From: a virus | Strand: one strand, 5' to 3' | DNA length: 64,000 bases | Virus record (IMG/VR): IMGVR_UViG_3300027899_000012 | Coordinates: 1 to 64,000 of that record | Shown here: one piece after another, positions 31,724 to 46,139 of the stretch | Numbering within the stretch: position 1 is the stretch's first letter | How the letters are laid out: each line of letters opens with the position of its first letter | The notes under the pieces: generated by a model | What the model was told of the DNA's origin: nothing | Seen by the model: the letters and a program-made list of their open reading frames with translations, nothing else | Database searches by the model: none | Translations under genes and position numbers: made by a program

Positions 31724-31920
31724 CGTGCGCTTCCCTTCTCAAGCGCCACGCGCTCGCGTTCGGAGGTTCGGATCGCGCTGCGAAGCTCGCGAAGGGCTCG
31801 CTGGCGGTTTCGCTCCCACCTCGGGTTGGCGTTCGGGCCCTCGGCCTCGATCTTGTCCACCTCGCTTCGCAGCCAGGCGAGCCCGCGATCGACCGCCTCT
31901 ACGTTGAGCGCAAGGGCCAT
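31720..31920 (-). CDS. Small coiled-coil protein
   Basis: SD AAGGAGG; MALALNVEAVD... Confidence 0.6.
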   Translation of the reverse strand: MALALNVEAVDRGLAWLRSEVDKIEAEGPNANPRWERNRQRALRELRSAIRTSERERVALEKGSAR

Positions 31921-31922
31921 GG

Positions 31923-32300
31923 CTACGCGCCCTCCTTGGCGTTCACCCAGACGAGCGTTCCGCCCCTGGGAAGCTTCTGGGGCATGTCCTCGACGCGAAG
32001 GCCCATGGCCTCGGCGATCTTGGGCAACCACTCGATCCACATCGCGTTGGTGACGCGCCCTTCGCCCGGATCCCCGTACCCGCGATTCAAGTCTTTGTGC
32101 CCGTTGTAAGACTCGCTGGTGGCGAGCATCCACTTGGGGCCGTAGTAGGACGAGCATCCCACGCCCGACCATCCGGTGTGCCCCTTGGTCTTGCACACGC
32201 ACACGCCGCCCTTGCGAATCATCACGTCCCTGTCGGTTCCCCAATCCACGCCGCAGGAATGCCGGGGCAGGATCTCACGGTCTTTTTTCGTCCACGCCAT
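31923..32300 (-). CDS. Hypothetical protein
   Basis: TGATG coupling; MAWTKK... Confidence 0.65.
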   Translation of the reverse strand: MAWTKKDREILPRHSCGVDWGTDRDVMIRKGGVCVCKTKGHTGWSGVGCSSYYGPKWMLATSESYNGHKDLNRGYGDPGEGRVTNAMWIEWLPKIAEAMGLRVEDMPQKLPRGGTLVWVNAKEGA

Positions 32301-32605
32301 CACATGCCTTCCAATTCTGCGAACGCCATGTCGCTGTAACCGGCCCACTCTTCCTCGCTCACCTCGCAGCGCTCGCGCGCCAGCTTGTCGAACTCGCGCT
32401 GTTGCTTCGCGCTAGTCGGTCGGCGGACGGGAACGCGCACCTCCGCTCCGCACGTGTCGCACCAGCACGTTGCCCAGTCTCCGTGCAGAAAGCACACGTT
32501 CTGCTTGCCTCCGCACCCGGGCTCCAGGCACGTGCCCACGGTTTCGCCCTTGATGCCCAGGGCGAACAGGGTTGCGGATGGCAGGCTGCGAACGACCGCG
32601 CTCAA
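32300..32605 (-). CDS. Small zinc-ribbon protein
   Basis: CLEPGC...CDTC; start codon uncertain. Confidence 0.55.
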   Translation of the reverse strand: MSAVVRSLPSATLFALGIKGETVGTCLEPGCGGKQNVCFLHGDWATCWCDTCGAEVRVPVRRPTSAKQQREFDKLARERCEVSEEEWAGYSDMAFAELEGM

Positions 32606-33234
32606 GTTGCGCCTCCCTTCCCACCGGTGGGTAGGAGCATCGCGCAAATGTACAGGTATCCGTAGGATGCGTTCGGGTTGGCGATCAGGCGCAACCCGGG
32701 GCGCTCGATCACGACAAGCCTACGCTCGTCCGGTCGAAGCCCAAGCTCCTTGATGCGCTTGCGCAGGATGGGAAGGCCCGTGTCGTTGCACCACTGGCAC
32801 AGCTTGTGAAGCTCGGCCTTGGGGCCAGCGTTCGCTTGCCTGTCGTGCAGGATGTCAATCATCAGCCCGCCCCGGAAATCATCCTGCAGGATCGCTCGCG
32901 CTCCCCATGCCGCGACGCAGGGAACGTCCGGTTGCAGGCCCCAGGCGAGGCGTTCGATAGGCTCGGGAGCGGGCGCGGTATCGTTGCTCGGCTCGGGGCC
33001 GTTCTGATCGTCCTGCAGGTCCACCTGCGAGCACAACCACTGCCAGTACTCGGGGGTGGGCTCGCCTCCTGCCCGCACACGGATCGCGCACTCGGGCACG
33101 CCTTCCATGCACGGTTCGATAGCGCTCAGGCAAGTGTTTTCGTACTCGACAGCGCTTTCCACGTTCGAGAACCGACCCAGGTAATCCTCACGCGTTGAAT
33201 CGCTCACAGTGGCCTGCCTTTCCGTGCCGCTCAT
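32602..33234 (-). CDS. Hypothetical phage protein
   Basis: ATGA coupling; AWGARAI and NASYGYLY motifs. Confidence 0.7.
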   Translation of the reverse strand: MSGTERQATVSDSTREDYLGRFSNVESAVEYENTCLSAIEPCMEGVPECAIRVRAGGEPTPEYWQWLCSQVDLQDDQNGPEPSNDTAPAPEPIERLAWGLQPDVPCVAAWGARAILQDDFRGGLMIDILHDRQANAGPKAELHKLCQWCNDTGLPILRKRIKELGLRPDERRLVVIERPGLRLIANPNASYGYLYICAMLLPTGGKGGAT

Positions 33235-33665
33235 TTGCTGTCGTCCTCGTCCGTGCGGTTGCGTTCGGCCTCGTACGCAGCCAGGAACACCTCGTAGGTG
33301 ATGGTTCCCTCCCGCACCAGCCGGTCGAGGATGTTTGCGGCCCATCCCTGGCGCTCTCCAATCTCGCGATCGAGGAACATGCGCGGGGTCTCCTGCACAG
33401 GCTCCATCGCGTGTACGAGCGAAGCCCACTCCTCCCTGTCGATGCGAGCGTCCATGTACGACCAGCTTCCTGTCCAGGCTGACAGGTAGGTGATGTGCTT
33501 GCCGTTCGCATCCTTGTCCACGAACCGATCCCGGACGCGCACGATCGTGCCCTTGCTCACGACCGGGCATTTGCGCCAGTCGCGCTTCATTCGACGGTCG
33601 GGTTCAGGCGTGTGCACGTCGCACGTCAGCACGTATGTCCCAGGCTTCACGTCCGCGAGTCTCAT
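33231..33665 (-). CDS. Hypothetical protein
   Basis: SD GGAAGGG plus leader hairpin. Confidence 0.7.
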   Translation of the reverse strand: MRLADVKPGTYVLTCDVHTPEPDRRMKRDWRKCPVVSKGTIVRVRDRFVDKDANGKHITYLSAWTGSWSYMDARIDREEWASLVHAMEPVQETPRMFLDREIGERQGWAANILDRLVREGTITYEVFLAAYEAERNRTDEDDSK

Positions 33666-33701
33666 GTCGGTCTGTCCCTTCCCGCACGCCACGCGTGCGA
33701 T

Positions 33702-33998
33702 TTACGGTCGTACGATCAGAAGCGCGCTCGCTCCCCGCTCGAATTCCATGTGCTCGGCTACACCCGAACGCGCATCCTTCGTTCGGAGCACGCATCCCTG
33801 GCGCATGGGGCATCCTTCGGGCCGATCCGCGTCGGCGTACTCGTCGCTCACAAGGAACGCGACGGCCGGGCTGAAGTAGTCGGTCAGTCGGTCGCCCTGC
33901 TCGGCTTCGAGCACCTTGATCTGCTCCCACAGCCGATCATTCACCAGGGCGAGCGTGTACTCGCCGTGTCCATGGTCCACCAGTACGATTGCGCTCAT
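33702..33998 (-). CDS. Hypothetical protein
   Basis: ATGA coupling; MSAIVLV... Confidence 0.6.
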   Translation of the reverse strand: MSAIVLVDHGHGEYTLALVNDRLWEQIKVLEAEQGDRLTDYFSPAVAFLVSDEYADADRPEGCPMRQGCVLRTKDARSGVAEHMEFERGASALLIVRP

Positions 33999-34516
33999 AC
34001 GTCCCCCAGCTTCGCCACGTACAGCATCCGATCGATCAGGTTCTGCACGTCCGCGCTCGTGAACGTGGAGCCCTCGTCCTGGCTCGCGATGATGCGTGCG
34101 ACGCGAGCGAGCACGATCGCTTGCTGCATTTCGCGCCCGATGAAACGCCAGCCCTGGCTGGAGCCCACGCTTACCGAAATGCACTGGTCCACGAACATCC
34201 GGATCTGCCGGGTGGTGAACCGCGCTCGCTTCTTGGTGGGCTCGCCCTGCCCGGGAATCACGCTTCCGTCAGGGAGCGTGAAAGGCTCGCGAAGCGCGGC
34301 CTGTACAAGCTCCGTGTTGCACCAAATGGGCGTCAGGTTCGGGAACGCGATCGGCTCCTTGCACTGCGGGCATCGCGTCTTGCCCGGTGGGGCGTACAGC
34401 CCATCGTTGTGATCGTGTCCGCTCTGGTTGACCAGCCGCGTGTTGCAATGCGGGCACGTGACTGCGACCGCCGAGACGTGCATGTTCACGGGCCTGTAGT
34501 GAATGGGCTTGCTCAC
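33995..34516 (-). CDS. Zinc-ribbon hypothetical protein
   Basis: CPHC...CPQC; coupled. Confidence 0.65.
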   Translation of the reverse strand: MSKPIHYRPVNMHVSAVAVTCPHCNTRLVNQSGHDHNDGLYAPPGKTRCPQCKEPIAFPNLTPIWCNTELVQAALREPFTLPDGSVIPGQGEPTKKRARFTTRQIRMFVDQCISVSVGSSQGWRFIGREMQQAIVLARVARIIASQDEGSTFTSADVQNLIDRMLYVAKLGDV

Positions 34517-34980
34517 AGCACAATCCCCTGTCCGCCGCAGTTCGGGCACTCGGGGTTCACTTCGATCCAGCCCGTCTCCGTGTTCGGCTCACCGCACCCT
34601 TCGCACCCGTGCGTCTCGTTCCAGGCGTTCTGCCCGTCTGCGTCCGCGTAGGCCACGCACTTGTCCCACGTCTCGGTCGCACACGGGAACGTGATCCCGT
34701 GCGGAGGAAACAAGCTGTCCGTGCCCTCGCAGTACCCCTGCACGATCACCTGAAACACGCCCTCGCCCTGGGAGTTGGGAATGAACGCGACCGAACAGCC
34801 GCACGACGTGGCCTTGTAGACCCGGTTGCGAATGCGCGAGATGACAGCCGCCGCTTCGTCGCCCTGGCGCACGTCGGCACCAACGTGTTCCGCGAGGTCA
34901 TGCAGCCCGCCGATGATCCCTTCGGCCAGCCTGCGGGTTCCGAACGCGCTACCGAACGTGTCCGCTTTGTGCGTGCTCAT
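34513..34980 (-). CDS. Hypothetical phage protein
   Basis: RVYKATSCG; C-terminal CPNCGGQG. Confidence 0.7.
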   Translation of the reverse strand: MSTHKADTFGSAFGTRRLAEGIIGGLHDLAEHVGADVRQGDEAAAVISRIRNRVYKATSCGCSVAFIPNSQGEGVFQVIVQGYCEGTDSLFPPHGITFPCATETWDKCVAYADADGQNAWNETHGCEGCGEPNTETGWIEVNPECPNCGGQGIVL

Positions 34981-35783
34981 GATCTGCTCCCCAACAGGCC
35001 CCGCGCCAGTCCACGCGGGAAGCTGTCATAGTCGCCGTACGCCTTGTTTTCCTTGAGCGCAGCCTCGACGGGCTCTCGCACCTCCGCGGGCAACTCGTCG
35101 CCGTCGTGGTTCTTCCAGCCTGCGTCCTGCAGGTACTTGAGCAACGCTTCGCACTTGGTGTTGCGAAGGGAGCGCTCTTCCTCGGCGAGCGCCTTTTCCA
35201 GCGGCTCTAGCTGCGCTTTGATGGCGCTGATCGCGTCGTGGAAGGGAGCGATGTTCGCGTGCTCCACGAACCACTCTGTGGCTACTCCGCGCAGCAGCAA
35301 GCGCTTCTGCTCCTCTACGAACCTGTACTGGTGTTGGCTCACAAGCTCTTGGATCTCGTAGTTCGCTTGCTTCACGACCGCGGCCATAAGCTCGCCTTGC
35401 TCGATGCGCTTGCGAAGCTCGGCGGCAGCGTTCGCCCGGCGCGCAGCCTTCTTGGCCTCGGTCGCGCACCCCCGGTAGTCGAATTGGTCCGTGAGCGTAG
35501 TGGCCCAGAAAGCGCGCTTCTGCAAGCCGTTGAATGGGACCGTGGGCATGACGTTCGCCGCGTCGATCTGCGCGTACACTTCATCGTGCAGCACGCCGCG
35601 TTGCTTGCCCCACACGGATGTGCCCCCCTGCGTGGCCTCGTGGAATTCCACCTCGCCAAAGACGAAGTCTTCGGGCACCAGCTTGCGCACCAGGACCACG
35701 TACCGGTCCTCGGGAGCGAAATCCTTGCGCCCGATGGGGGCGATGGTGCGAACGACGGGACCGATCGATTCCAATGTGCTCAT
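34977..35783 (-). CDS. Coiled-coil hypothetical protein
   Basis: 268 aa; SD AGGAAGG plus leader hairpin. Confidence 0.75.
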   Translation of the reverse strand: MSTLESIGPVVRTIAPIGRKDFAPEDRYVVLVRKLVPEDFVFGEVEFHEATQGGTSVWGKQRGVLHDEVYAQIDAANVMPTVPFNGLQKRAFWATTLTDQFDYRGCATEAKKAARRANAAAELRKRIEQGELMAAVVKQANYEIQELVSQHQYRFVEEQKRLLLRGVATEWFVEHANIAPFHDAISAIKAQLEPLEKALAEEERSLRNTKCEALLKYLQDAGWKNHDGDELPAEVREPVEAALKENKAYGDYDSFPRGLARGLLGSRS

Positions 35784-35840
35784 GATCCTGAACCTTCCTG
35801 CCCGCCACGCGGGCTTATGTGCTGCTCGCTTTGTGGGCCG

Positions 35841-36596: not shown

Positions 36597-36997
36597 CACG
36601 CACCTTCCTTCGGAACGATCGACAGCGAGTCGATCACGCATTCCACAACCTGTTGTGCCCATGAGCCGTGCCCACGCTTCACGTCCATCTTGCAGACGCG
36701 ATCCGGGATCGCTCCCCTTCCCCAATGCCGATCCCACACGATCTCTACGATGTACTGGCGCACCGGCGTCCAACCTGCCCTTGCAGCGCGGTCCAGGGCG
36801 ATGTCCAGCGTCGGACCGTACCCGAAGGCGCCGCCTCCTTCCTTGCCGCAAGCGATGCTCACCTTCCACTTGGGTTGCGGAATGGGCTCGTTCTCGGGAT
36901 AGTCGGGAGCGCCCTCCCGGAGCTTGGCCAGGGTCATGGCCGGAAGCGGGGGAACGTCAGAGAGGCGAGATAGTTCGTGAGCCTTCAGGGCAATCAT
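36596..36997 (-). CDS. Hypothetical protein
   Basis: Leader hairpin plus AGAAAGC points to ATG of MIALKAH. Confidence 0.65.
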   Translation of the reverse strand: MIALKAHELSRLSDVPPLPAMTLAKLREGAPDYPENEPIPQPKWKVSIACGKEGGGAFGYGPTLDIALDRAARAGWTPVRQYIVEIVWDRHWGRGAIPDRVCKMDVKRGHGSWAQQVVECVIDSLSIVPKEGA

Positions 36998-37103
36998 CGT
37001 TGCAGTCGCTTTCTGCACGCCACGCGTGCGTTCCGTCACTGGCAGCGCTCGCCGGTTTAACCCGACCAGCGCACGTGCAGGTTAACCGCTGCACCGGGAT
37101 CGA

Positions 37104-37409
37104 TCACTCGATGACTTGATCCTCCAGCGGGGCGAGATCGTCGGGCAAGTCCTCATCCTGGGAGAGCAACCACCGCGCAGCTTCTTGCGGTGATACCCAC
37201 TCCGCATGCGGCAGGGTGCCTTGCCACTGGCTCGTGCACTCCAGCCAGTATCGACCCTTTCGCGACCGGTGAAGCTTCTGGTGCGTGAACTGGCTACCCG
37301 TGGCACGGCTCACGTGGTTGTTGCCGTTCCAACGTGTGCCTTCAGTCCAGGACTGCGTTGCATTCGCAGTGTCCACAACCGTCCCATCTTCCATTCGGTA
37401 TCTGCTCAT
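37104..37409 (-). CDS. Conserved phage hypothetical protein
   Basis: SD AGGAGG; HQKLHRSRKGRYW...EAARWL pattern. Confidence 0.8.
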   Translation of the reverse strand: MSRYRMEDGTVVDTANATQSWTEGTRWNGNNHVSRATGSQFTHQKLHRSRKGRYWLECTSQWQGTLPHAEWVSPQEAARWLLSQDEDLPDDLAPLEDQVIE

Positions 37410-37460
37410 CGGTAAACCTCCTGCGCACGTGGCGCATTTGTGTTTTCGTTGACGGGCAAT

Positions 37461-37937
37461 TCAGTCGTCGCCTTCGTCTCCTTCCTCGTCGTTCTCTTCG
37501 TCTGCGTCGGCGGCCCCTTGGTTGTCCGGGTCGTTGGCGTCCTGGTGTTCCTTCTCGACCGTGGGCCAGTCCGTCTGCTTGACGGAAAGGGCCAGGGCAG
37601 CGTTGAAAATCGCCTCGGTGCCAGCGTGCAGTCGCGCCGCGAGAATCAGGCCCATGAACGCCAAGTCCTCGTTTCCTTCAGACTCATCGTCGGCCGCATT
37701 CGCAATCTCGCACGCAACGTCAAACGCTTCGTCGGCCGTGAAGCTGGAAAGCGGAGTCACAGGCGCGGGCCGTCGCCCGTCGCCTCGTTCCGATCTCCTA
37801 CCTCCGCCGCCCCTTCGATGTCCTCGCATTTTATCCTCCACACGTACAGGTTTGTTTCGCAAGTCGTAGACCTTGACGCCTGCTGATCGCAAGGCTTCGA
37901 GCGCACGAGCTTCCCTTCTCTTGGGACAGCCGGCCAC
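37461..37937 (-). CDS. Hypothetical protein with acidic tail (start uncertain)
   Basis: D/E-rich C-terminus. Confidence 0.5.
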   Translation of the reverse strand: MAGCPKRREARALEALRSAGVKVYDLRNKPVRVEDKMRGHRRGGGGRRSERGDGRRPAPVTPLSSFTADEAFDVACEIANAADDESEGNEDLAFMGLILAARLHAGTEAIFNAALALSVKQTDWPTVEKEHQDANDPDNQGAADADEENDEEGDEGDD

Positions 37938-37939
37938 GG

Positions 37940-39076
37940 CTAGAATTCCCCCTGCCCGATGTTCTTGACGGCTGCGGCGTAGGCTTCAACCAAGGTCGTG
38001 CCCTTGCCCTTGCCGATCGGCGTGGATTTGTCCGCGATCGTGGTCGAGTAGATCGTGACCCACGCCTGCCCGTTCTTGCCATGACCGGCCGAAAGCGACC
38101 ATTTGTGCAGGTCGGCTTCGATCAACGGGTTCCCGATCGGAGCGGCCTCGACGGGGGCCGGGGTTGCGGGTGCAGTTGCCTTGGTTGTCGTTGTCTCGCT
38201 CATGGGTTGCTCGGCTTTCTCGCACGCCACGCGTGCGGTTTCGTTCGCGGGCACCTCGCCCGCAGGTTGGATTGCCACAATGGGGTAGGGGTGCGAGGCA
38301 ATGTGCTCCTCGACGGATTCAAAATGCCGCCCGACCGTGCGGTCAGCGGTGAAGCTCACCGTGGGATAGCTGTGCCAGGGTTGATCGATGGTCATGGGTA
38401 CGCGCAAGCGTCCCTTGCCGCCGTGCCACGTGAACGTCAGGCGAGGCGCGCGACCGTTCCATCCCAGGTTCCAATCGATCCGGACGGTCCAATCGCGGCA
38501 CCGGAGCGAATCCAGGGTGCGAACGACGCTCCGGAGCTTCAACGCGTCCGCGTACCAGCAATGATCCTCGAAATCCACGCGTAGGTTTGTTCTGCCCTTG
38601 CAGGATGCGAGAATGAGCGCCTTGAACGGTACGCGCTCCAGGATCGCGGTCCAGTCATCGTGGATCATGCTCGCCTGCAGATGCGACCGGGCCGCGCAAA
38701 CGGTGGGGTGGTCGTTCGGAACTGCCTCGCCCCTTTCGTCGGCTCTCCGTGCGCCACCTTTGACGCTTCCCAGGAACATGCCCGCGAGCTTCGCGTCGTC
38801 GATCGCTTGGATCTGCTCTCGCAAACCGTCGGCGCCGGTGTGCCACCAGTACGCGAAGGCGTCCAGGCTCGCAATCATGGCGTCGCGAATCTCGAACGTG
38901 TCGGCGCCTTCCTTCGGAGCGTCCGCGATTCGGTACTCTTCATCGTTCGCCTTGACGATCCTCTTTGCCATCTTGACGATCGGAACCAGCATGGCCTCGA
39001 ATTCGTGGCGCGTGCACGGGGGAACGGGTTCGGGCGTTGCTTCGCTTGCTTCCACGTCAACGGGTTGGCAACTCAT
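37940..39076 (-). CDS. Hypothetical protein with probable in-frame internal start at 38203
   Basis: ATGA coupling at 39076; internal leader hairpin plus AGAAAGC before MSETTTT. Confidence 0.7.
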   Translation of the reverse strand: MSCQPVDVEASEATPEPVPPCTRHEFEAMLVPIVKMAKRIVKANDEEYRIADAPKEGADTFEIRDAMIASLDAFAYWWHTGADGLREQIQAIDDAKLAGMFLGSVKGGARRADERGEAVPNDHPTVCAARSHLQASMIHDDWTAILERVPFKALILASCKGRTNLRVDFEDHCWYADALKLRSVVRTLDSLRCRDWTVRIDWNLGWNGRAPRLTFTWHGGKGRLRVPMTIDQPWHSYPTVSFTADRTVGRHFESVEEHIASHPYPIVAIQPAGEVPANETARVACEKAEQPMSETTTTKATAPATPAPVEAAPIGNPLIEADLHKWSLSAGHGKNGQAWVTIYSTTIADKSTPIGKGKGTTLVEAYAAAVKNIGQGEF

Positions 39077-39291
39077 GGCGCATACCTCACGCATCGGATC
39101 TGGAATTCCGCGGCCGCCCCTCCGCCGCCCGTGTACGTTTCACCGGGCTCCAAGCGTTGGATCGCGTCCAGGACTTCCGCGAGGTACGTGTCAGCCTGGA
39201 CGTCGTTCGTCGCGCGCCACTGATCGAGCGTAAACAGGGCCGGAAAGGCATCGCCTGTTTCCGGGTCTAGTTCCTGGTAAAGCTTTGTCAT
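39073..39291 (-). CDS. Small phage hypothetical protein
   Basis: LEPGETYTGGGGAA motif; coupled. Confidence 0.7.
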   Translation of the reverse strand: MTKLYQELDPETGDAFPALFTLDQWRATNDVQADTYLAEVLDAIQRLEPGETYTGGGGAAAEFQIRCVRYAP

Positions 39292-39515: not shown

Positions 39516-39766
39516 GACACGCCCCCAGGGCTCGGGAAGGACACGCCTTCGACAACCACGGACCCGGGGGGCGGGGTTCCGTCGCGCATGGCGCGCGCGG
39601 CGTTCGTCGCGGCTTCGAGCACGGCCACGGGATCGGCTCCGATGGCTTGGGCCACCTGGACAAGGCAATGCGTGAGCGCTGCCATGACGTCCGCCGGACC
39701 ATCGTCGGGGCCGGTCATGACGTTAACCATAATCGGGGGGGAACTGGGATCGTTCTGGCTGGACAT
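39512..39766 (-). CDS. Hypothetical protein
   Basis: SD GGAGG; downstream of promoter 39828-39856. Confidence 0.7.
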   Translation of the reverse strand: MSSQNDPSSPPIMVNVMTGPDDGPADVMAALTHCLVQVAQAIGADPVAVLEAATNAARAMRDGTPPPGSVVVEGVSFPSPGGVS

Positions 39767-39827
39767 GGTTTCTACCTCCGGGATCGACACTCGATCCGTC
39801 CGGGCGAACTGCCCGGGTGCAAGGTGG

Positions 39828-39856
39828 ATGGTACGTTGCAAGGTCGTAACAGTCAA
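39828..39856 (-). promoter_or_regulatory. Sigma70-like promoter
   Basis: TTGACT-17nt-TACCAT. Confidence 0.75.
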
Positions 39857-40089
39857 GGGGCGATCGCACCTAACCCTGCGCTTTTCTTGCGAAAACGTGT
39901 ACGTGTTTGCAGGGTGCTTCGCTCGTGCGTAACACGCGCACGTGTCCGGAAGGGTGGGGTGCGGAGCGTTGCAAGGTCGCAACAACTTGCGCGCCATGGT
40001 CGCCGCGGTCGGAACGGGCGATCGGGTAGGGGGCGAAACATTGCGCGAAGCGTGCTGCGGCATGGCGGCGATCCCTGGGATGGCGGGAA

Positions 40090-40112
40090 GGGGGAACCCC
40101 GAAGGGTTCCCC
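40090..40112 (-). terminator. Stable hairpin after 40123 gene (terminator or 3' stabiliser)
   Basis: GGGGAACCC-TTCG-GGGTTCCCC on minus strand; only a weak U-tract. Confidence 0.55.
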
Positions 40113-40122
40113 CGGTGGACCG

Positions 40123-41622
40123 TCAGCCGGCGGCCGGCGGGGTGGAGCCCGATCCGTTGCCTTCGGCAACGGGAGCGCGCGCCTTGAATTTACGCGGCCC
40201 GGCCTTGCCCACGCCAAGGGTTCGGAGCGCTTCGCGCGCCCCGTCAAGCTTTGCGGCGATGGCATCGCGAGCGGTTCCAGACTCCCGGACCGCTTGCCAG
40301 TCCGCAACCCCGTCCAGGGTCGCCTTGATTTGTGCAGCCACGGCCGCGAGCGCCGTATCGTTTGTGACGTCCTTGGCGGCGAGATCCTTGAGCCATCCCT
40401 GAAGGCTCGCGATACGGACGTCGCGGAACGCCTTCCGCTTGCCATCCTCGCCCGGTCGCAGCAGGGCGGTTAGTTCATCGAGCATGGTGCCCGCTTGCAC
40501 GCGTGCGGCCGCCCGGATTTCGGCCCACGCTTCGCGCTGCTGTACTTTCATCGCTTCTGCATTTCGGGCCGCCATGGCCGTGTCCAGCCGCTTTGAACCC
40601 GTGAGATCCACCCATGTCGTGCTCGCCGTGTAGGACGCAACCGCGACCGATCGCGGCACGTAATCGGACGCGCGCCATACTCCCGGCAGTTCACGGATCC
40701 CGGTCATGGGATCGAGCCGTTCAACGACGTCCCGATCGTCGATGACAGCCTGATCGTAAACGTTGCCCAGCGCTTGCACCAGGGCAGGGCGGGTGCTGGT
40801 GATATAGTCGGCGGCGAGCGCTTCAACGCGATCCATCAAGGCGATCGGCACGGGATAGATCCCGCGCAGCTGGGAAGGCAACGCAACGGACCGGATCGCG
40901 AGCCGGAACGAATTGTCAGCGGCTTCGATGCTCGCATGCTCCGGGCAAGCGCTCAGAAGCTTGACGGTCGTTTTTGTGGACTTTTTACCCTTACCGCTTG
41001 CCGCCGGATCGGCCGGCGCTTGCGCGTCAAGGCTCGTTACCCGCACGCGATCCGTGATATCGCGGCCCACGCCAAGGCGGCCGAAATCCGCGCGGAACCA
41101 TACGACGTTCTTAAACGGATCCGTGATTTCCTTCGGCGCTTCTGCAAGGGCAGCGCGGAGCGCGGCATCCTCCGCCGTTTCACCGGTTGGGCCTTCGGCG
41201 GGGGGGGGCGCATCGCTGGACGGCTCCGCCGTCGCTTCGCTGGCAGCGGCCGCCACGGCCGCCGCGCCTTCGGCCTGTACCTCGATCGGGTTGCTCGCAA
41301 CCCGGGCTGGCAAGGGTTCGGGCTCCGGGTCCGCTTCGGGTTGCGCGACCGGTTCGACCGGTTCGCCTACCGCGATCGATTCGAGCCATCCCACGATCGC
41401 GATCCGAGCATCCGCCCGGGTCCCCTTCGGCAGCGCTCCGAGCAACGCGGCCGCCGCGCCGAACACGGGCAGCGCGGCCGTTGGCATCGTAGCGGCTTCG
41501 CGCTCGATTTCTGCCACGATTTCGGCGCGCTTCGATCCGCCGTCGAAAGTCGCAAGCAACGCATTGGACAGAACCGCATATTGATCAGAGGTGAGGGAGT
41601 AACGGGTTGTGCTGGTATTCAT
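40123..41622 (-). CDS. DUF3150-like protein
   Basis: GIYPVP...DY.P...helical C-terminus with DGKRKAFRD and DVTND; context with AAA module. Confidence 0.6.
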   Translation of the reverse strand: MNTSTTRYSLTSDQYAVLSNALLATFDGGSKRAEIVAEIEREAATMPTAALPVFGAAAALLGALPKGTRADARIAIVGWLESIAVGEPVEPVAQPEADPEPEPLPARVASNPIEVQAEGAAAVAAAASEATAEPSSDAPPPAEGPTGETAEDAALRAALAEAPKEITDPFKNVVWFRADFGRLGVGRDITDRVRVTSLDAQAPADPAASGKGKKSTKTTVKLLSACPEHASIEAADNSFRLAIRSVALPSQLRGIYPVPIALMDRVEALAADYITSTRPALVQALGNVYDQAVIDDRDVVERLDPMTGIRELPGVWRASDYVPRSVAVASYTASTTWVDLTGSKRLDTAMAARNAEAMKVQQREAWAEIRAAARVQAGTMLDELTALLRPGEDGKRKAFRDVRIASLQGWLKDLAAKDVTNDTALAAVAAQIKATLDGVADWQAVRESGTARDAIAAKLDGAREALRTLGVGKAGPRKFKARAPVAEGNGSGSTPPAAG

Positions 41623-41666
41623 GGCTTCGTCTGCTTTCTGCCCGGACACTCCGGGCGTTTGTGGGC

Positions 41667-41918
41667 CTATTGCTTGATCCGTTCGGGTTGCTTGGCTTGC
41701 TCGCGTACCATGCCCTTGACCACGCGAGCGGAGCTTTCGATCGTCACGTTCGCCGCTCGCGCAAATGCCGCGATCGCGTCCGCCACGGTCGAATGCGACG
41801 TCTGCATTTTTCCGGTCACGATCTTGATCACCCCAGACGGGGCGATCGTGATTTCGAGCGTATCCGTTGCCACGGTTTCACCGTTCGGGCCGTGTGAATG
41901 ATTGGAATTGCCGCACAT
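41667..41918 (-). CDS. DUF2997-like small protein
   Basis: DTLEITIAPSGVIKIVTG beta-hairpin; context; SD GGAGG. Confidence 0.6.
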   Translation of the reverse strand: MCGNSNHSHGPNGETVATDTLEITIAPSGVIKIVTGKMQTSHSTVADAIAAFARAANVTIESSARVVKGMVREQAKQPERIKQ

Positions 41919-41926
41919 GGTTGCAC

Positions 41927-42313
41927 CTACCTCCGGAACGTGAGCTTAACCGCCCCGTCGCTTTGTTTCACCGTGCTCGTATGCTTGAATCCGAACCGTT
42001 TGAGCGACACTTGGGCCGCCTTTGTGCCGTACGCCTGTCGGATCTCGCCGGTCATGCGCTCGACGTCCGCTTCCGTCCCTTCCTCGATCCGGATCCGCGA
42101 TCCGGACTGCCGAACGTTCAACGTTGACGTCCCCTTGCGAGCTACCAGCAAATCGCTGGCCAGCTTGACGTTCCGAGCATGGCCCCGAACGATCGCCCCT
42201 TCCTGGTACAGGGTGACGGTCCAACCGTCGCTTTCGAGCGCTTGCGCCAGCATGGCGCGATCCATCCCGTCCAGGTTGAGCCTGGAAGTCGTGTACTTTG
42301 TATCGCATGGCAT
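41927..42313 (-). CDS. DUF1257/Ycf35-like protein
   Basis: MPC...LAQALESDGW...IRQAYG...KRFGF pattern; context. Confidence 0.65.
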   Translation of the reverse strand: MPCDTKYTTSRLNLDGMDRAMLAQALESDGWTVTLYQEGAIVRGHARNVKLASDLLVARKGTSTLNVRQSGSRIRIEEGTEADVERMTGEIRQAYGTKAAQVSLKRFGFKHTSTVKQSDGAVKLTFRR

Positions 42314-42315
42314 GA

Positions 42316-43965
42316 CTAAAAATCCTCGCCCGGGTCGGGAGTTTCCGTAGGGGGGGGCGCAGCAGGAGCCGGAGCGGCCGCCCGAAGCTTGCGACCGGCC
42401 GCCGGTGTCATCAGTGCGGCCGCAGACGGCGCGACATACGGGCGCCCCGTGGACGCGTCCGTATAGCTGTTTTCTGCGGCGATTCGATTGCGCTCGGCTA
42501 CTTCCTTGCCCACCTTTCGCAAGCTTGCCACGTGCCGCTCCGCCGCTTGCTGGACGGTGATACCGTAATCGAGCGACTTCTGGATCGCCTGCACGATATC
42601 GCGACCCGTCCATCCCTGGTAGAGCGCTTGCGGCGGCCGCTCGGACGGCGGGAGCCCGAATTTGCGCAACTGGGCAAGCCAGATCCCTTCCAGCTGGGCA
42701 GCGTCGGGCACCCCAAAGTAGAACGTCTCAACCATGCGCGATGTAAACTCTTCGCGAAATAGCGGGGCGCCGGTGTCATCGTGCGTCCGATTGCAGGTTG
42801 CGAACCATAGGTGCACGCCCCCGAACGCTACCAGCCGTGCGAACGCTTGCTCCGCGTTTCTTTTTGACGCTCCGACATACTCGTTTTTTAGACTGTCCGT
42901 ATCCAGCATGACGATCGGGCACTGGGCAAGGCTGGCCACAACCCTGGCCAGCGTGGACTTGCCCACGCCCGGCAATCCGCTTGACAGGATCGTGATGTTC
43001 CGGAGCACGCGCGGATCCGGGTAAGCAAGGTGAGTGAGCAGCGACTTGAAAATCCCGGCCGTCGCTCCGCCGTCGCGCGCATCCGACCCGGATTGTACGA
43101 TTTTTTCGGCTTCATCCAACAACACGACAAGGCGGATCGGGATCCGCTTCACTAGATCCCCTGCCCAGTCCAGGACATAGGGTATGCCTGCGAAGTGTTC
43201 GGGCCGTTCGGGCTGATCAATCGTGATACCGGGCAGCGCGCCCAACATTTCGCGGGTCCGTGCGCCGACCACGTCAAGGTCAAGGCGTCCCGTGGCGCAC
43301 CCCAGGGATCCAGCCTGCGACACTTGGAACCCCGTGAGCGAAGCCGTGGCCCCGCTTGCCGCCGCAATCGAGCGATCGTCCGCGGGAATGCTATTTTCCG
43401 CGCACAAGTCGCGAACGACCCCGGCGCGCTCCGCGTCCGATGGCAAGGGATCCCGGACAAGCAAGACGTCACCCTGTATCAGGGCAGGGATCCGACCCGG
43501 GTCGTTACCCAACCCAATGACCATGGATTCCGATCCGCCCGCACAAAGCCAGTCGCGAAGGCGTAGCAGGGCGAGCGCAACCCCGGGTTTGTTCCAGACG
43601 TCGTCCGCGTCCCACCATACCAGGACGGACCGGGGCGGGATCCCGTATCGTCGGGTTGTTTCCGGGTCGATCCAGGGGCGCATAGCCTTGCACGCTTCAA
43701 GCGGCTCGCAAAGCATGCTCGGATCCTTCTCGCCGCAGAAGTCGCCGATCGAATCGCGCGCAGCGTCGTTCAAGGGTTCGAGTCCCCAGGTTGAGTCAAG
43801 GTGCCACATGGGGGGGCAGTCCAGACCGCGGGCCGCCGCGTCGTTGGCGATCGATTCTGCGATCGCCGATTCGGCAGCAGGCTGATCACCCGTGGCGAGG
43901 TACGCGATCGGAACGGATACGCCGTACGCTAGGACAATTTGAGCCGTGAATTTCGGGGCCGTCAT
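42316..43965 (-). CDS. Ycf46-like AAA+ ATPase with permuted Walker motif order
   Basis: VVLLDEAEK, GLPGVGKS, YVGAS, FATCN, GWTGRDI. Confidence 0.88.
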   Translation of the reverse strand: MTAPKFTAQIVLAYGVSVPIAYLATGDQPAAESAIAESIANDAAARGLDCPPMWHLDSTWGLEPLNDAARDSIGDFCGEKDPSMLCEPLEACKAMRPWIDPETTRRYGIPPRSVLVWWDADDVWNKPGVALALLRLRDWLCAGGSESMVIGLGNDPGRIPALIQGDVLLVRDPLPSDAERAGVVRDLCAENSIPADDRSIAAASGATASLTGFQVSQAGSLGCATGRLDLDVVGARTREMLGALPGITIDQPERPEHFAGIPYVLDWAGDLVKRIPIRLVVLLDEAEKIVQSGSDARDGGATAGIFKSLLTHLAYPDPRVLRNITILSSGLPGVGKSTLARVVASLAQCPIVMLDTDSLKNEYVGASKRNAEQAFARLVAFGGVHLWFATCNRTHDDTGAPLFREEFTSRMVETFYFGVPDAAQLEGIWLAQLRKFGLPPSERPPQALYQGWTGRDIVQAIQKSLDYGITVQQAAERHVASLRKVGKEVAERNRIAAENSYTDASTGRPYVAPSAAALMTPAAGRKLRAAAPAPAAPPPTETPDPGEDF

Positions 43966-44007
43966 TTTCTGTACTCGCTTTCTGCGGCGACACTCGCCGC
44001 ACCAGGG

Positions 44008-44035
44008 AAGTTAGCACGTGCACCGCACGTGTCAA
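44008..44035 (-). promoter_or_regulatory. Sigma70-like promoter of AAA operon
   Basis: TTGACA-16nt-TAACTT with extended TG. Confidence 0.65.
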
Positions 44036-44061
44036 CGGTAAAACGTACGCGTGATTTTGGG

Positions 44062-44080
44062 GAAACCGTGAAACGGTTTC
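44062..44080 (-). terminator. Hairpin after 44094 gene
   Basis: GAAACCGT-GAA-ACGGTTTC inverted repeat. Confidence 0.45.
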
Positions 44081-44093
44081 GAGGGTGGGGCGA

Positions 44094-44405
44094 TTATTCG
44101 AGCTTGGTCAGCAAATCCGCCAAGGGCGGACCGTCCAACGCGGGCAACGCTTCAAGGCGCACGTTGAACCCTAGATCGTGCTTGTCGCGAACGTTCAGCG
44201 CTTCCGTGAATGCTTCCGCTATGTTGCCCGATTGCAGCAGGGCAACGAAGCGATCCCATTTGACCGGATCGTCCAGGAGCGCGACGTCCAGAATGCAGGA
44301 AAGCGCTTCCCGTTGCGCGCTTTCCTCGGTTGGACAAAGCGCAACGTGCTGGATTTGTTCGTTGCGGTCCTGGAACACTACAACGAAGGCCACGGGCGCG
44401 TTCAT
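44094..44405 (-). CDS. Hypothetical protein
   Basis: ATGA coupling; MNAPVAFVVV... Confidence 0.7.
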   Translation of the reverse strand: MNAPVAFVVVFQDRNEQIQHVALCPTEESAQREALSCILDVALLDDPVKWDRFVALLQSGNIAEAFTEALNVRDKHDLGFNVRLEALPALDGPPLADLLTKLE

Positions 44406-44590
44406 TTGCCCCCCTTTGCCGCTCGGCTCCACGCAGCGGGAAGGAACCCACCACCGCGGATCCATTCGTCCATGGCCAGCACTAGCTCTGCTAGTCGATC
44501 GGCTACAGGTGTCATACCGCCCGAAGGTTTGCCGTCAACGACGGCAGTGGCAAGGCGGACTTGTTCGGCTAGGTTCGCGTCCGGATCCAT
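44402..44590 (-). CDS. Conserved small phage protein
   Basis: MDPDANL...RLAELV.AMDEWI..GGFLP..W, a pattern I recognise from small phage early proteins. Confidence 0.8.
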   Translation of the reverse strand: MDPDANLAEQVRLATAVVDGKPSGGMTPVADRLAELVLAMDEWIRGGGFLPAAWSRAAKGGK

Positions 44591-44593
44591 GTT

Positions 44594-45166
44594 TCAATCG
44601 CTTTCTGGGGTGCCATGCGCCCCATTGGGTTGTGTGTCTGGCGCATCGCACATGTTGCGCACCTGCGAAGCATCGCCATTTTTTGCGGAGGGTCTGATCG
44701 GAAACATTGCGTCAGGCGCGCTGGCCATCGTGGTCGGCAGCACGGGCCAGCGATCCGCGGAGCCCTGCCCGGCGACTCGGCGGACGTCGGCCAGCGTCCG
44801 GCCGCAACGCCAGCCTGCAGCCGTCCGGAGGGCTCGCCCGCTCACCAGGGAGGGGGCGCAACCCGGGCGCACCAGGATGGCCACGACGCGAAGCAACCGG
44901 GAGGGCTCGCCGGAGTCAAGCGCTCGCTCGGAAGGTCGGGCGGACGGATCGGGGTGAGCATCAAGCAGGACAAGCGCCCCCCCGTCAACCAGGGGAAGGA
45001 CTGCGCCAGTGTCGCGCACCCTGCGCTCCCACGTCGAGGGGGCGAAAAGGGAGCCATCCGAAATCCCAGCTTGCCCACACGTGAGGGGCAAGCGCACACC
45101 ATGCGCGGCAAGGACAAGCGCCAGCCTTGCGAGCGGTTCGGGGTGCGTTGTTCGTTCGGATACCAT
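44594..45166 (-). CDS. Hypothetical protein
   Basis: ORF preceded by TTGCAC-17nt-TATAGG. Confidence 0.45.
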   Translation of the reverse strand: MVSERTTHPEPLARLALVLAAHGVRLPLTCGQAGISDGSLFAPSTWERRVRDTGAVLPLVDGGALVLLDAHPDPSARPSERALDSGEPSRLLRVVAILVRPGCAPSLVSGRALRTAAGWRCGRTLADVRRVAGQGSADRWPVLPTTMASAPDAMFPIRPSAKNGDASQVRNMCDAPDTQPNGAHGTPESD

Positions 45167-45893: not shown

Positions 45894-45955
45894 CACTCGA
45901 CTGACCGGGTTTGGTGCACTTCCATCAAACAGCCTATTACTGGTAAGCTTTCACG

Positions 45956-46138: not shown

Positions 46139-46139
46139 C

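What the first reader, a model, noticed from the sequence alone, without database searches (positions are those of the whole stretch)
31742..44624. Covarying GUG-triloop hairpin at a fixed distance upstream of nine early-gene start codons
Seen (plus-strand text; the mRNA loop reads GUG): AGCGC-CAC-GCGCT 31742; CGCACGC-CAC-GCGTGCG 33683; GCCCGC-CAC-GCGGGC 35800; GCACGC-CAC-GCGTGC 37015; CGCACGC-CAC-GCGTGCG 38221; GGATCGA-CAC-TCGATCC 39781; GCCCGGA-CAC-TCCGGGC 41640; TGCGGCGA-CAC-TCGCCGCA 43983; and an AUG-loop variant TGGGGTGC-CAT-GCGCCCCA 44606. Stems change sequence but keep pairing. The loop lies 24-28 nt from the downstream ATG every time. The stem is followed by AGAAAGC (5 cases) or a GAAGG/GGAGG-type SD. 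Sites recur about every 0.6-2.3 kb, and I did not notice them before genes outside this region. Inference: a dedicated cis-element, such as a binding site for a viral translation/antitermination protein, an RNA processing or stabilising signal, or a hairpin promoter analogous to coliphage N4 virion-RNAP promoters (short stem, 3-nt loop).
Basis: partly seen in the sequence, partly recalled or inferred. Interest (0 to 1): 0.85.

Follow-up and report, generated by a model that had tools for sequence, protein, structure and literature searches.

The report
Start-site hairpins in a lake virus
An uncultured freshwater virus puts the same tiny hairpin, whose stem letters change while the pairing is kept, directly in front of the ribosome-binding stretch of nine genes in one 13-kb block, including a start inside a conserved gene; it is a real signal for starting protein synthesis that resembles signals seen in other phages.

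Summary
Nine hairpins with a 3-nt loop lie on the minus strand between 31.7 and 44.6 kb. Eight have a GUG loop and one has AUG. Each stem ends 14-17 nt before an ATG that opens an ORF of 62-549 codons. CAC-loop hairpins with stems of 6 bp or more number 7, against 0.56 +/- 0.68 in 200 shuffles. A covariance model finds no tenth copy in the 90-kb genome.

New here:
- The stem abuts a purine tract (AGAAAGC or GGAAGG type) with no gap.
- Two copies lie inside coding sequence. H5 sits inside a conserved 384-aa protein, just before an in-frame Met.
- In 6 of 9 homologues of that protein (25-79% identity) the peptide at this spot takes five further forms (ARVSG, GRVAT, ARVPG, ARVAS, ARMAG). Each can still encode a perfect 6-bp hairpin, followed by a Met 8-10 codons on.

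No RNA polymerase, sigma factor or Rfam family was found.

Best reading: an mRNA leader module that marks independent translation starts and is probably recognised by a specific factor. An N4-like hairpin promoter is unlikely but not excluded.

The scan noted similar hairpin-plus-ribosome-site leaders before, on other phage DNA (e1-5774393, e1-5868149).

Verdict: a new variant of a known kind.

The parts
31740..31756 (-). H1: CGAGCGC-GUG-GCGCUUG (5 bp perfect, 7 bp with one G.U), then AGAAGGGAAGC, with the ATG at 31723. It lies inside the 3' end of ORF 31720..31920, whose stop overlaps the next start (ATGA).
   Evidence: (32.1 bits)
33683..33699 (-). H2: CGCACGC-GUG-GCGUGCG, then GGAAGGG, with the ATG at 33665. 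The upstream TAA lies 2 nt before the stem.
   Evidence: (37.7 bits)
35800..35814 (-). H3: GCCCGC-GUG-GCGGGC, then AGGAAGG, with the ATG at 35783. The upstream TAA touches the stem.
   Evidence: (32.0 bits)
37015..37029 (-). H4: GCACGC-GUG-GCGUGC, then AGAAAGC, with the ATG at 36997.
   Evidence: (29.0 bits)
38221..38237 (-). H5: CGCACGC-GUG-GCGUGCG, then AGAAAGC. It lies inside ORF 37940..39094, where it encodes ARVAC.
   Evidence: (36.7 bits)
38201..38203 (-). Internal in-frame ATG (Met298 of the 384-aa ORF), 26 nt after the H5 loop centre. It would give an 87-aa C-terminal product. A Met stands at this aligned column in 8 of the 10 aligned proteins (this one included).
39781..39797 (-). H6: GGAUCGA-GUG-UCGAUCC, then C and GGAGG, with the ATG at 39766.
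   Evidence: (31.7 bits)
41640..41656 (-). H7: GCCCGGA-GUG-UCCGGGC, then AGAAAGC, with the ATG at 41622 (499-aa protein). The upstream TAG lies 10 nt before the stem.
   Evidence: (35.2 bits)
43983..44001 (-). H8: UGCGGCGA-GUG-UCGCCGCA, then GAAAGC, with the ATG at 43965 (549-aa AAA ATPase).
   Evidence: (32.8 bits)
44606..44624 (-). H9: UGGGGCGC-AUG-GCACCCCA (one C.A mismatch in the RNA sense, T.G on the plus DNA strand), then GAAAGC, with the ATG at 44590 (62-aa ORF).
   Evidence: (32.4 bits)
44008..44035 (-). Sigma-70-like promoter TTGACA-16-TAACTT with the palindrome CACGTGC-GGT-GCACGTG in its spacer. The seventh base after the -10 box is the first base of H8. The start of the transcript is inferred from spacing, not mapped.
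39828..39856 (-). Sigma-70-like promoter TTGACT-17-TACCAT upstream of H6.
39800..39816 (-). Extra hairpin CCGGGC-AGUUC-GCCCGG, 2 nt before H6.
38247..38263 (-). Extra hairpin GCGGGC-GAGGU-GCCCGC, 9 nt before H5 and also inside the ORF.
37421..37435 (-). Looser relative of the element: UGCGC-CACGU-GCGCA (5-nt loop) abutting GGAGG, with the ATG at 37409. It scores only 10 bits with R1 and is not counted as a member.

Best explanation
The element is an mRNA leader module with this layout: an A-rich flank, a 6-8 bp hairpin with an RUG triloop, a purine tract that serves as or overlaps the ribosome-binding site, about 10 nt, then AUG. It marks the places in one 13-kb gene block where ribosomes start on their own rather than by coupling to the gene before.

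Shown:
- The geometry of all nine copies.
- Strand specificity, and restriction to one block.
- Two copies inside coding sequence.
- A conserved internal in-frame Met after one copy.
- Peptide traces of the hairpin in relatives.

Inferred:
- The hairpin acts on the RNA. It sits as close to the ribosome-binding tract as it can without covering it. There it keeps the tract unpaired and insulated from upstream sequence.
- Where it is the first thing in the transcript (H8), or after a cut in the A-rich flank, it also shields the 5' end.
- The loop (RUG) and the two pairs next to it (G-C, then C-G or A-U) never vary, while the outer stem is free to change. A sequence-specific reader is therefore likely. 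This could be a viral or host protein that switches these nine cistrons together, or the ribosome itself.

A speculative detail: AGAAAG is the exact complement of a 16S rRNA 3' end of the form ...CCUCCUUUCU (recalled, host unknown). The rRNA-mRNA duplex could then stack end-to-end on the hairpin.
For: (1) In 9 of 9 copies the stem ends 14-17 nt before an ATG opening an ORF of 62-549 codons. The background rate is 2.5% of positions.

(2) The purine tract begins at the first base after the stem in H1-H5 and H7, one base inside the stem in H8 and H9, and one base later in H6.

(3) H1 lies in the last codons of ORF 31720..31920, which overlaps the next start. H5 lies in ORF 37940..39094. That ORF is a single conserved protein: P0006 at 75% identity and P0007 at 41%, both covering 97-98%. 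A terminator or a plain gene-spacer element would not sit there.

(4) At the H5 site 7 of 10 aligned proteins (the window's own and six homologues at 25-79% identity) carry x-R-V/M-x-x peptides. These take six different forms: ARVAC, ARVSG, GRVAT, ARVPG, ARVAS and ARMAG. Each can be encoded as a perfect 6-bp stem around a GTG or ATG codon. All seven have a Met 8-10 codons later. The background for V- or M-centred pentapeptides in the same proteins is 19 of 334, the 7 site peptides included.

(5) P0002 and P0003, homologues of the protein after H7 at 84% and 66% identity, were called with N-terminal extensions ...GNPSGVSGQKAxExM. Those are the translation of hairpin plus AGAAAGC; here the same frame reads GPQTPGVSGQKADEAM.

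(6) The genome has host-type promoters. The strict TTGAC-N16-18-TAnnnT pattern occurs 7 times, against 2.27 +/- 1.41 in shuffles. At the one before H8, the seventh base after the -10 box is the first base of the stem. That is the same spacing as at four promoters where an ATG follows the -10 box by 6-7 nt.

(7) Each hairpin folds alone at -9.2 to -13.8 kcal/mol, and 7 of 9 appear in the minimum-energy fold of a 155-nt context. H1 and H8 do not.

(8) H1 gains two pairs through a G.U, which is possible only in the sense strand.

(9) No RNA polymerase or sigma gene was found.
Against: - No RNA data exist. The only run that holds the sequence is the source DNA metagenome, so no 5' end, cleavage or expression level is known.
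- No DNA of any relative could be read. Conservation in relatives rests on peptides, which show compatibility with a hairpin, not the hairpin itself.
- P0011, P0013 and P0014 lack a compatible peptide.
- H9 has a C.A mismatch in the RNA sense and would pair better (T.G) on the plus, template DNA strand.
- No candidate binding protein was identified. Most proteins of the block match no Pfam or PHROG family.
- AGAAAG is not a common ribosome site elsewhere in the genome. Among 121 genes without the hairpin, AGAAA occurs 2 times against 1.1 expected and GAAAG 4 against 1.9, while AGGAG occurs 27 against 1.25. The tract may therefore be part of the element rather than a ribosome site.
- The 16S tail is recalled and the host is unknown.
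- Geometry alone does not separate this reading from a promoter that starts about 11 nt after the loop.
Confidence: 0.5

Rival explanations
1. A processing and stability signal only. The polycistronic RNA is cut in the A-rich single-stranded flank just 5' of the stem, which often reads A then C before the stem. The hairpin then becomes the 5' end of the downstream RNA and protects it from 5'-end-dependent nucleases, without any direct role in translation.
For: - A-rich 5' flanks (GAAAC, CAAAC, GGAAC, UAAAU, CAUAA, CCAAU), with 'AC' directly before the stem in 5 of 9.
- At the promoter before H8 the inferred first base of the transcript is the first base of the stem.
- A purine tract follows the stem, as in known 5' stabilisers (recalled: the ompA 5' stem-loop; the polypurine stabiliser of Bacillus phage SP82).
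Against: - It does not explain the invariant loop and the two invariant closing pairs.
- At H6 another hairpin lies nearer to the inferred 5' end.
- A cut before H5 would destroy the mRNA of the long 384-aa form.
- There are no RNA data.
Confidence: 0.2
2. Hairpin promoters in the manner of coliphage N4. The template (plus) strand extrudes a CAC-loop hairpin that an unrecognised viral RNA polymerase reads, starting about 11 nt downstream within AGAAAGC.
For: - The form matches what the N4 review describes (passages of PMC4496689 read): a 5-7 bp stem, a 3-nt loop, a conserved GC-rich heptamer centred on the loop, and variable flanks that only need to pair.
- Here the core is G[C/A]GTG[G/T]C.
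- The central base of the template-strand loop is a purine (A) in 9 of 9.
- H9 pairs better on the template strand.
- A fixed tract begins 8-9 nt after the loop centre.
- A promoter could also explain a separate product from the internal start after H5.
Against: - No T7-like polymerase was found (PF00940, no match at E up to 10; that family rang in none of the 14 bacterial and archaeal control genomes, where it is not expected, so sensitivity is unproven).
- No multisubunit polymerase or sigma factor was found (controls rang in 14 of 14).
- The largest ORF is 1469 aa, and of four large proteins scanned none matched a polymerase family.
- A C-A-C loop cannot form the sheared G:A pair that the review gives as the reason N4 hairpins extrude.
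- There are nine copies spread over 13 kb, two of them in coding sequence, against three at one genome end in N4.
- Host-type promoters are present.
- A start at +11 would leave the five AGAAAGC genes with 14-16 nt leaders and no ribosome site.
Confidence: 0.1
3. Joints for gene shuffling or site-specific recombination. This would resemble PeSL cassettes of T4-type phages, or sites for the 1469-aa tyrosine recombinase encoded at 21432..25841. The repeated hairpins would serve as crossover points that move gene cassettes.
For: - The hairpins flank mostly orphan genes.
- H2, H4 and H5 share an identical 15-nt core.
- A very large tyrosine recombinase is encoded nearby.
- PeSL stem-loops were shown to be crossover points (passages of PMC2839356 read).
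Against: - Only 2 of 9 have a promoter, which is a defining PeSL part.
- The repeats are only 15-19 nt and differ in sequence, so they offer little homology.
- The fixed distance to ATG and the copy kept inside a conserved protein across distant homologues point to expression, not mobility.
Confidence: 0.05
4. Transcription terminators or attenuators between genes, for sense transcription or for antisense transcription.
For: - GC-rich stems lie right after stop codons at H2, H3 and H7.
- On the plus strand the A-rich flank reads as a short T-rich tail, and the scan flagged H5 that way.
Against: - No U tract follows the stem on the sense strand in 9 of 9.
- The scan lists no terminator-like site on the minus strand at any hairpin. 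Terminator-like sites in the region number 12, against 17.1 expected.
- H1 and H5 lie inside coding sequence.
- A terminator needs no fixed loop and no fixed distance to the next ATG.
Confidence: 0.04

Closest known systems
Start-associated sequences (SAS) and extended SAS of cluster K mycobacteriophages (Pope et al. 2011, PMC3203893; passages read)
   Same: Repeated 11-19 times per genome, in one orientation. Confined to the non-structural half of the genome. Placed a few bases before start codons, mostly ATG. They overlap the ribosome-binding position but are more conserved than pairing with rRNA needs. They are conserved across relatives in front of different gene families. Their function is unknown, and a role in translation initiation has been proposed.
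   Different: SAS is a fixed 13-bp sequence (GGGATAGGAGCCC) 3-7 bp from the start. It is absent here beyond chance: 1 match with 2 mismatches against 1.48 expected. The ESAS inverted repeats are 17 bp with a 4-13 bp spacer and, by the authors' account, do not keep RNA pairing. Here the stem sequence is free and the pairing is kept.
PeSL (promoter-early stem-loop) cassettes of T4-type phages (Arbiol et al. 2010, PMC2839356; abstract and passages read)
   Same: Short repeated modules between orphan genes that end in a Shine-Dalgarno sequence and a start codon and contain a stem-loop.
   Different: A PeSL is built on a strong sigma-70-like promoter with an AT-rich upstream region, and its stem-loop acts as a terminator. 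Here only 2 of 9 have a promoter-like site, no U tract follows, the loop is invariant, and two copies lie in coding sequence.
Early promoters P1-P3 of coliphage N4, read by the injected virion RNA polymerase (review PMC4496689; passages read)
   Same: A short hairpin with a 3-nt loop, a conserved heptamer centred on the loop, outer stem bases that only need to pair, and a fixed distance to a downstream functional point.
   Different: No polymerase gene was found. The loop cannot make the sheared G:A pair. There are nine dispersed copies rather than three at a genome end. The hairpin abuts a ribosome-binding tract.
C(UUCG)G hairpins in T4 intercistronic regions and 5'-terminal stem-loop stabilisers such as ompA
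   Same: Small, very stable hairpins between phage cistrons or at mRNA 5' ends that affect mRNA life and expression.
   Different: Those rest on loop stability or on position at the 5' end, not on a fixed distance to the start codon. A GUG triloop is not a known extra-stable loop.
In-frame internal starts giving two products from one phage gene, such as T7 gene 4A/4B (recalled from memory; no paper read)
   Same: An internal ribosome site and Met within a longer ORF would yield a short C-terminal product.
   Different: In those cases no conserved hairpin is known upstream of the internal site. Here the hairpin appears to be kept by matched codon changes.
Earlier notes of this scan on other phage DNA: e1-5774393 (11 copies of a triloop hairpin fused to GGAG) and e1-5868149 (two-hairpin leader fused to ribosome sites)
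   Same: Covarying small hairpins fused to ribosome-binding sites in front of many genes of one block, on one strand.
   Different: They come from other genomes. Their sequences were not shown to me and I did not test them, so whether the loops or spacing agree is unknown.

Membership tests
N4-type hairpin promoter | A 5-7 bp stem and a 3-nt loop, with a conserved heptamer centred on the loop and variable paired flanks | tested here: met
   Stems are 5-8 bp, the loop is 3 nt, the core is G[C/A]GTG[G/T]C and the outer pairs covary.
N4-type hairpin promoter | The template-strand loop forms a sheared G:A pair that makes the DNA hairpin unusually stable and able to extrude | tested here: not met
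   The template-strand loop is C-A-C (C-A-T in H9) and the other strand is G-T-G, so no G...A pair is possible. The feature is as described in PMC4496689.
N4-type hairpin promoter | A cognate virion RNA polymerase of the T7-like family encoded by the virus | tested here: not met
   PF00940 gives no match at E up to 10 in six frames (the family rang in none of the 14 control genomes, so sensitivity is unproven). The largest ORF is 1469 aa. Pfam and PHROG scans of the 1469-, 822-, 788- and 660-aa proteins found no polymerase. The record is estimated 91% complete, so a gene could be missing.
N4-type hairpin promoter | Transcription starts about 11 nt after the loop centre | not testable with these tools
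   No RNA run holds the sequence.
PeSL cassette | A strong sigma-70-like promoter within each cassette | tested here: not met
   Promoter-like sites stand before H6 and H8 only, 2 of 9. The upstream 130 nt of the others were read by eye without finding a match.
PeSL cassette | The stem-loop works as a terminator or attenuator | tested here: inconclusive
   No U tract follows in 9 of 9, and no minus-strand terminator-like call was made at the sites. Function itself is not testable here.
SAS/ESAS of cluster K mycobacteriophages | The 13-bp consensus GGGATAGGAGCCC 3-7 bp before the start codon | tested here: not met
   One match with 2 mismatches in the window, at 61135, against 1.48 expected by chance.
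SAS/ESAS of cluster K mycobacteriophages | Repeated, one orientation, immediately upstream of starts, confined to one part of the genome | tested here: met
   Nine of 9 are on the minus strand, 14-17 nt before an ATG, all within 31.7-44.6 kb of 90 kb.
Intrinsic terminator | A GC-rich hairpin followed by a U tract on the transcribed strand | tested here: not met
   The stems are followed by AGAAAGC, GGAAGG or CGGAGG. The scan lists none on the minus strand at these sites.
Any Rfam family | A match at the gathering score | tested here: not met
   No match at gathering score in the 64-kb window. One chance-level match (E 0.82, at 45920-46027) in 31.0-47.5 kb with E up to 1.
dsDNA operator or stoperator type repeat | A conserved sequence, with pairing between the half-sites not required | tested here: not met
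   There are six different stem sequences with pairing kept. Six of 8 pairs change on both sides.

The most novel reading that the evidence does not exclude
The hairpins are single-stranded-DNA promoters of the N4 kind, read by a polymerase that no current profile recognises, in a virus that also lacks any recognisable capsid, portal or terminase gene. That would be a second, independent transcription system that reads extruded hairpins. It would also explain how the short product of the 384-aa gene gets its own transcript.
Probability: 0.1. Interest if true: 0.85.

Novelty: new variant of a known kind. Interest (0 to 1): 0.55.

Why it matters
Repeated signals that sit at gene starts are known from a few phage groups (SAS/ESAS, PeSL), and none has an established mechanism. 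This case is clean in four ways.
- The signal is tiny.
- Its pairing is kept by matched changes.
- Its loop is fixed.
- It abuts the ribosome-binding tract to the base.

One copy sits inside a conserved protein. There the genetic code lets the hairpin be traced in distant relatives through matched amino-acid changes: Ala-Cys, Ser-Gly, Ala-Thr with Gly, Pro-Gly and Ala-Ser. That gives a rare handle for asking whether an RNA structure is selected within a coding region, and whether it drives an internal start.

If a specific reader of the loop exists, nine genes form a small regulon controlled after transcription in a virus whose genes are almost all unknown.

As a tool, a 17-nt hairpin plus a 7-nt tract that sets off independent translation could serve as an insulator part for high-GC hosts.

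Tried and rejected
**Relatives' DNA**
- No near match in the phage collection.
- tblastn of the 499-aa protein against the phage collection found nothing.
- tblastn of the AAA ATPase found one distant hit, 25% identity, in Tunturiibacter phage Tunturi_3. I did not follow it.
- The search for related loci found no locus with the 499-aa protein, its alignment A1, P0002 or P0004 in viral contigs, metagenome contigs (both scans used) or genome contigs.
- An exact-pattern scan for the H4/H5 hairpin plus AGAAAGC in viral contigs gave 0 hits.
- A looser pattern gave 115 single hits, of which 80 were listed. R1 scored those 80 loci at 24.2 bits or less, against 29 or more for the nine. Only L055 had two weak matches. 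I read five by eye and judged them chance. The 35 loci not listed were not scored.
- Earlier notes hold no look-alike stretches.

**Expression**
- No RNA holder is listed. The only run is the source DNA metagenome.
- Laying its contigs showed no variant letters.

**A reader protein**
- The C-terminal 65-aa domain after the internal start has a G-K-G...EAYAAA pattern that reminded me of a double-stranded-RNA-binding domain (recall).
- No support was found. Pfam on all 10 family members gave no dsrm match at E up to 10. PF00035 found nothing in six frames. A profile search against PDB sequences gave only designed repeat proteins.
- No fold could be made.

**Homologues of the 66-aa protein that holds H1**
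- None, so no second in-frame test was possible.

**Literature**
- Two word searches for a described hairpin-before-ribosome-site repeat in phages gave none or nothing relevant among the 20 listed of 157 (listing only).
- A claim of 'not in print' rests on these two searches.
- Supplements were not opened.

**Rejected readings**
- dsDNA operator: the pairing covaries.
- nut/boxB: this is a triloop, there are nine copies, and they abut ribosome sites (from recall of boxB).
- REP or attC: these hairpins are too short and lack their recalled core motifs.

Full report
**Setting**

The window is the first 64 kb of a 90,242-bp single-contig virus record. IMG/VR classes it as linear, CheckV estimates it 91% complete, and it comes from a freshwater metagenome. 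G+C is 60-66%.

Almost nothing in it matches known families.
- Matches found: an SNF2 helicase, a 1469-aa protein with a tyrosine-recombinase domain, an AAA ATPase, LamG, GDSL and glycosyltransferase proteins, and, beyond the window, RecE-like, RecT-like, ParB-like and methyltransferase genes.
- No head, portal or terminase family turned up among the 30 larger proteins scanned.
- The phage collection has no near relative.

**The observation**

The genes of the region run on the minus strand.

A scan for perfect hairpins with a 3-nt loop finds 141 with stems of 5 bp or more in the genome. CAC is the commonest loop (11).

With stems of 6 bp or more there are 7 CAC-loop hairpins, against 0.56 +/- 0.68 (largest 3) in 200 dinucleotide shuffles.

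The ninth site (44615) has a CAT/AUG loop and one mismatch.

Read on the minus strand, all nine have the same layout:
- an A-rich flank;
- a stem of 6-8 bp;
- an RUG loop;
- the stem's other arm;
- a purine tract beginning at the first base after the stem (AGAAAGC in five; AGGAAGG, GGAAGGG, AGAAGGG or CGGAGG in the rest);
- about 10 nt;
- ATG.

The stem ends 14-17 nt before the ATG in 9 of 9, and each ATG opens an ORF of 62-549 codons. Only 2.5% of minus-strand positions meet that test.

The invariant part is the loop plus two pairs, G[C/A]-GUG-[G/U]C. Further out there are six different stem sequences, and 6 of 8 pairs change on both sides (with the caveat that the set was chosen for pairing).

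A covariance model built from the nine and run over the whole genome without filters scores them at 29.0-37.7 bits and nothing else above 15.4 bits. The family is therefore nine copies, one strand, one 13-kb block.

Rfam has no match.

**Where the copies sit**

- H2, H3 and H7 follow the stop codon of the gene before by 2, 0 and 10 nt.
- H4, H6 and H8 lie in longer gaps.
- H6 and H8 are each preceded by a sigma-70-like promoter: TTGACT-17-TACCAT and TTGACA-16-TAACTT.

The strict pattern TTGAC-N16-18-TAnnnT occurs 7 times in the genome, against 2.27 +/- 1.41 in shuffles. At four of these an ATG follows the -10 box by 6-7 nt, as in leaderless genes. With the same spacing, the transcript from the promoter before H8 would begin at the first base of the H8 stem. 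This is inferred, not mapped.

H5 and H6 each have a second, unrelated 6-bp hairpin a few bases upstream.

Two copies lie inside coding sequence.
- H1 is in the last codons of ORF 31720..31920, whose TGA overlaps the next ATG.
- H5 lies in ORF 37940..39094. That ORF has no stop across the site, and the frame with high third-position G+C is continuous through it.

**The copy inside a gene**

The 384-aa ORF is one conserved protein. P0006 (75% identity, 383 aa) and P0007 (41%, 402 aa) cover 97-98% of it. An exhaustive profile search added more distant members, and I aligned ten in all.

At the H5 site the protein reads ARVAC, encoded as GCA CGC GUG GCG UGC. An invariant-looking Met comes nine codons later, followed by MSETTT..., which looks like an N-terminus.

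The homologues read as follows:

| Protein | Peptide at the H5 site | Compatible with a perfect 6-bp stem |
|---|---|---|
| window, P0006 | ARVAC | yes |
| P0007 | ARVSG | yes |
| P0008 | GRVAT | yes |
| P0009 | ARVPG | yes |
| P0010 | ARVAS | yes |
| P0012 | ARMAG | yes |
| P0011 | VVVEW | no |
| P0013 | EKTAQ | no |
| P0014 | TETTM | no |

In a hairpin read in this frame, codon 4 is the reverse complement of codon 2, and codon 5 of codon 1.
- Arg CGC, CGA or CGG forces Ala, Ser or Pro at position 4.
- Ala GCA, GCC or GCU forces Cys, Gly or Ser at position 5.
- Gly at position 1 forces a residue with C in the middle of its codon, such as Thr.

Every one of the six different peptides obeys this. 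A script confirms that 7 of 10 can be encoded as a perfect 6-bp Watson-Crick stem. The background is 19 of 334 V- or M-centred pentapeptides in the same proteins, the site itself included, and 80 of 3,734 pentapeptides overall.

All seven have a Met 8-10 codons after the loop codon. The residues between can encode AGAAAG (EK, KK) or GGAGG-like strings (back-translation is my inference).

ARMAG shows that the AUG-loop form seen at H9 also occurs elsewhere.

Likewise, P0002 and P0003 are homologues of the 499-aa protein after H7. They were called with N-terminal extensions GNPSGVSGQKAxExM, which are the translation of the hairpin's 3' arm plus AGAAAGC and are compatible with a hairpin.

So the element is older than this genome and is kept in relatives. 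Peptides show compatibility only.

**How it most likely works**

The stem-to-tract abutment, the fixed distance to the start codon, the presence inside coding sequence and the conserved internal start all tie the hairpin to the start of protein synthesis of the downstream cistron.

Genes of the block that lack the hairpin mostly overlap the preceding gene or carry a canonical GGAGG. Among 121 genes without the hairpin, AGGAG and GGAGG are enriched 21- and 10-fold in the ribosome-site window. AGAAA and GAAAG are not clearly enriched.

I therefore read the module as an mRNA leader that sets up an independent ribosome entry site. The hairpin holds the purine tract open and insulated. The invariant loop and closing pairs call for a sequence-specific reader. 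At the head of a transcript, or after a cut in the A-rich flank, the hairpin would also protect the 5' end.

AGAAAG is the exact complement of the last six bases of a 16S rRNA ending ...CCUCCUUUCU. That ending is recalled as common, for instance in actinobacteria; the host is unknown. AAAGG is enriched 7.8-fold at other genes. With such a tail, the first base after the stem would pair with the last base of the rRNA in H1-H5 and H7, so the two helices could stack. This is speculation with a clear test: insert bases between stem and tract.

Both loop forms, GUG and AUG, are start codons. I note this and have no test for it.

**Rivals**

An N4-type hairpin promoter matches in form, with a purine at the centre of the template-strand loop, and H9 pairs better on that strand. 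Against it:
- no T7-like polymerase, multisubunit polymerase or sigma factor was found;
- the loop cannot make the sheared G:A pair;
- host-type promoters are present;
- the copies are dispersed and partly inside genes.

A pure processing or stability signal explains the flanks and H8 but not the fixed loop.

Terminators are excluded by the lack of U tracts and the copies in coding sequence.

A PeSL-like shuffling joint lacks the promoter in 7 of 9 and offers little homology.

A dsDNA operator is excluded by the covariation.

**What is known, and novelty**

The nearest described things are the SAS/ESAS repeats of cluster K mycobacteriophages and PeSL cassettes. This element shares their start association and restriction to one part of the genome.

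It differs in being a covarying hairpin with a fixed triloop, and in occurring within a conserved ORF before an internal start.

The SAS consensus is absent.

Earlier notes of this scan describe similar hairpin-plus-ribosome-site leaders in other uncultured phages, so the kind recurs. I did not see or test those sequences.

I rate it a new variant of a known kind, with the mechanism open.

**Limits**

- No RNA data.
- No DNA of relatives.
- No structure prediction (closed).
- Host unknown.
- The 'early' label is untested.
- My gene map comes from a crude third-position G+C caller with manual fixes.

Noticed in passing
window 7416-7445 (+), 56036-56064 (+), 57180-57208 (-); L001 3088-3115 (+) = genome 65088-65115: Four sigma-70-like promoters (TTGAC-N16-18-TAnnnT) are followed by an ATG only 6-7 nt after the -10 box, which suggests leaderless mRNAs, as is common in actinobacteria (recalled). 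Looser matches seen by eye stand before 53810 (-) and 25841 (-). This may hint at the host.
   Followed up: partly
window 44008-44035 (-), 56036-56064 (+), 7416-7445 (+); genome 65088-65115 (+): The spacers of these promoters share GCACG/CACGTGC-like strings. [quoted passage not shown] This is a possible operator of a repressor.
   Followed up: no
window 37940-38134 (-): The C-terminal domain of about 65 aa after the internal Met is conserved in 10 family members, with the pattern ADLD.Y.WNAS...VVLY....K.A.GKG.T..EAYAAARK.AL. It reminded me of a double-stranded-RNA-binding domain (recall). Pfam, a six-frame dsrm search and PDB profile searches gave no support, and no fold could be made.
   Followed up: partly
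window 44625-47020: A stretch of about 2.4 kb upstream of H9 has a weak and shifting coding signal on both strands. None of six candidate ORFs matches Pfam. It could be a regulatory or origin region.
   Followed up: partly
window 37880-37960 (-) and 31724-31740 (-): The string GAGAAGGGAAGC occurs both after H1 and before the putative GTG start at 37937. There it follows a 5-bp hairpin with a UGGC loop (AGCCG-UGGC-CGGCU) placed right after a TAG.
   Followed up: no
window 33690-33692 and 41647-41649 (-): In H2 and H7 the loop GUG is in frame with the downstream ATG, 27 nt away. ORF finders and gene callers can therefore extend these genes through the hairpin.
   Followed up: yes
window 21432-25841 (-): A 1469-aa protein has a tyrosine-recombinase domain only at residues 241-561 and about 900 aa of unknown sequence after it. 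It is preceded by a promoter-like site close to its ATG.
   Followed up: no
window 41927-43965 (-): The gene after H8 is an AAA ATPase (PF00004, E 9e-11). It is followed by a 128-aa protein with a weak DUF1257 match (E 0.003, below the curated cut-off). Its only phage hit is at 25% identity, in Tunturiibacter phage Tunturi_3.
   Followed up: partly
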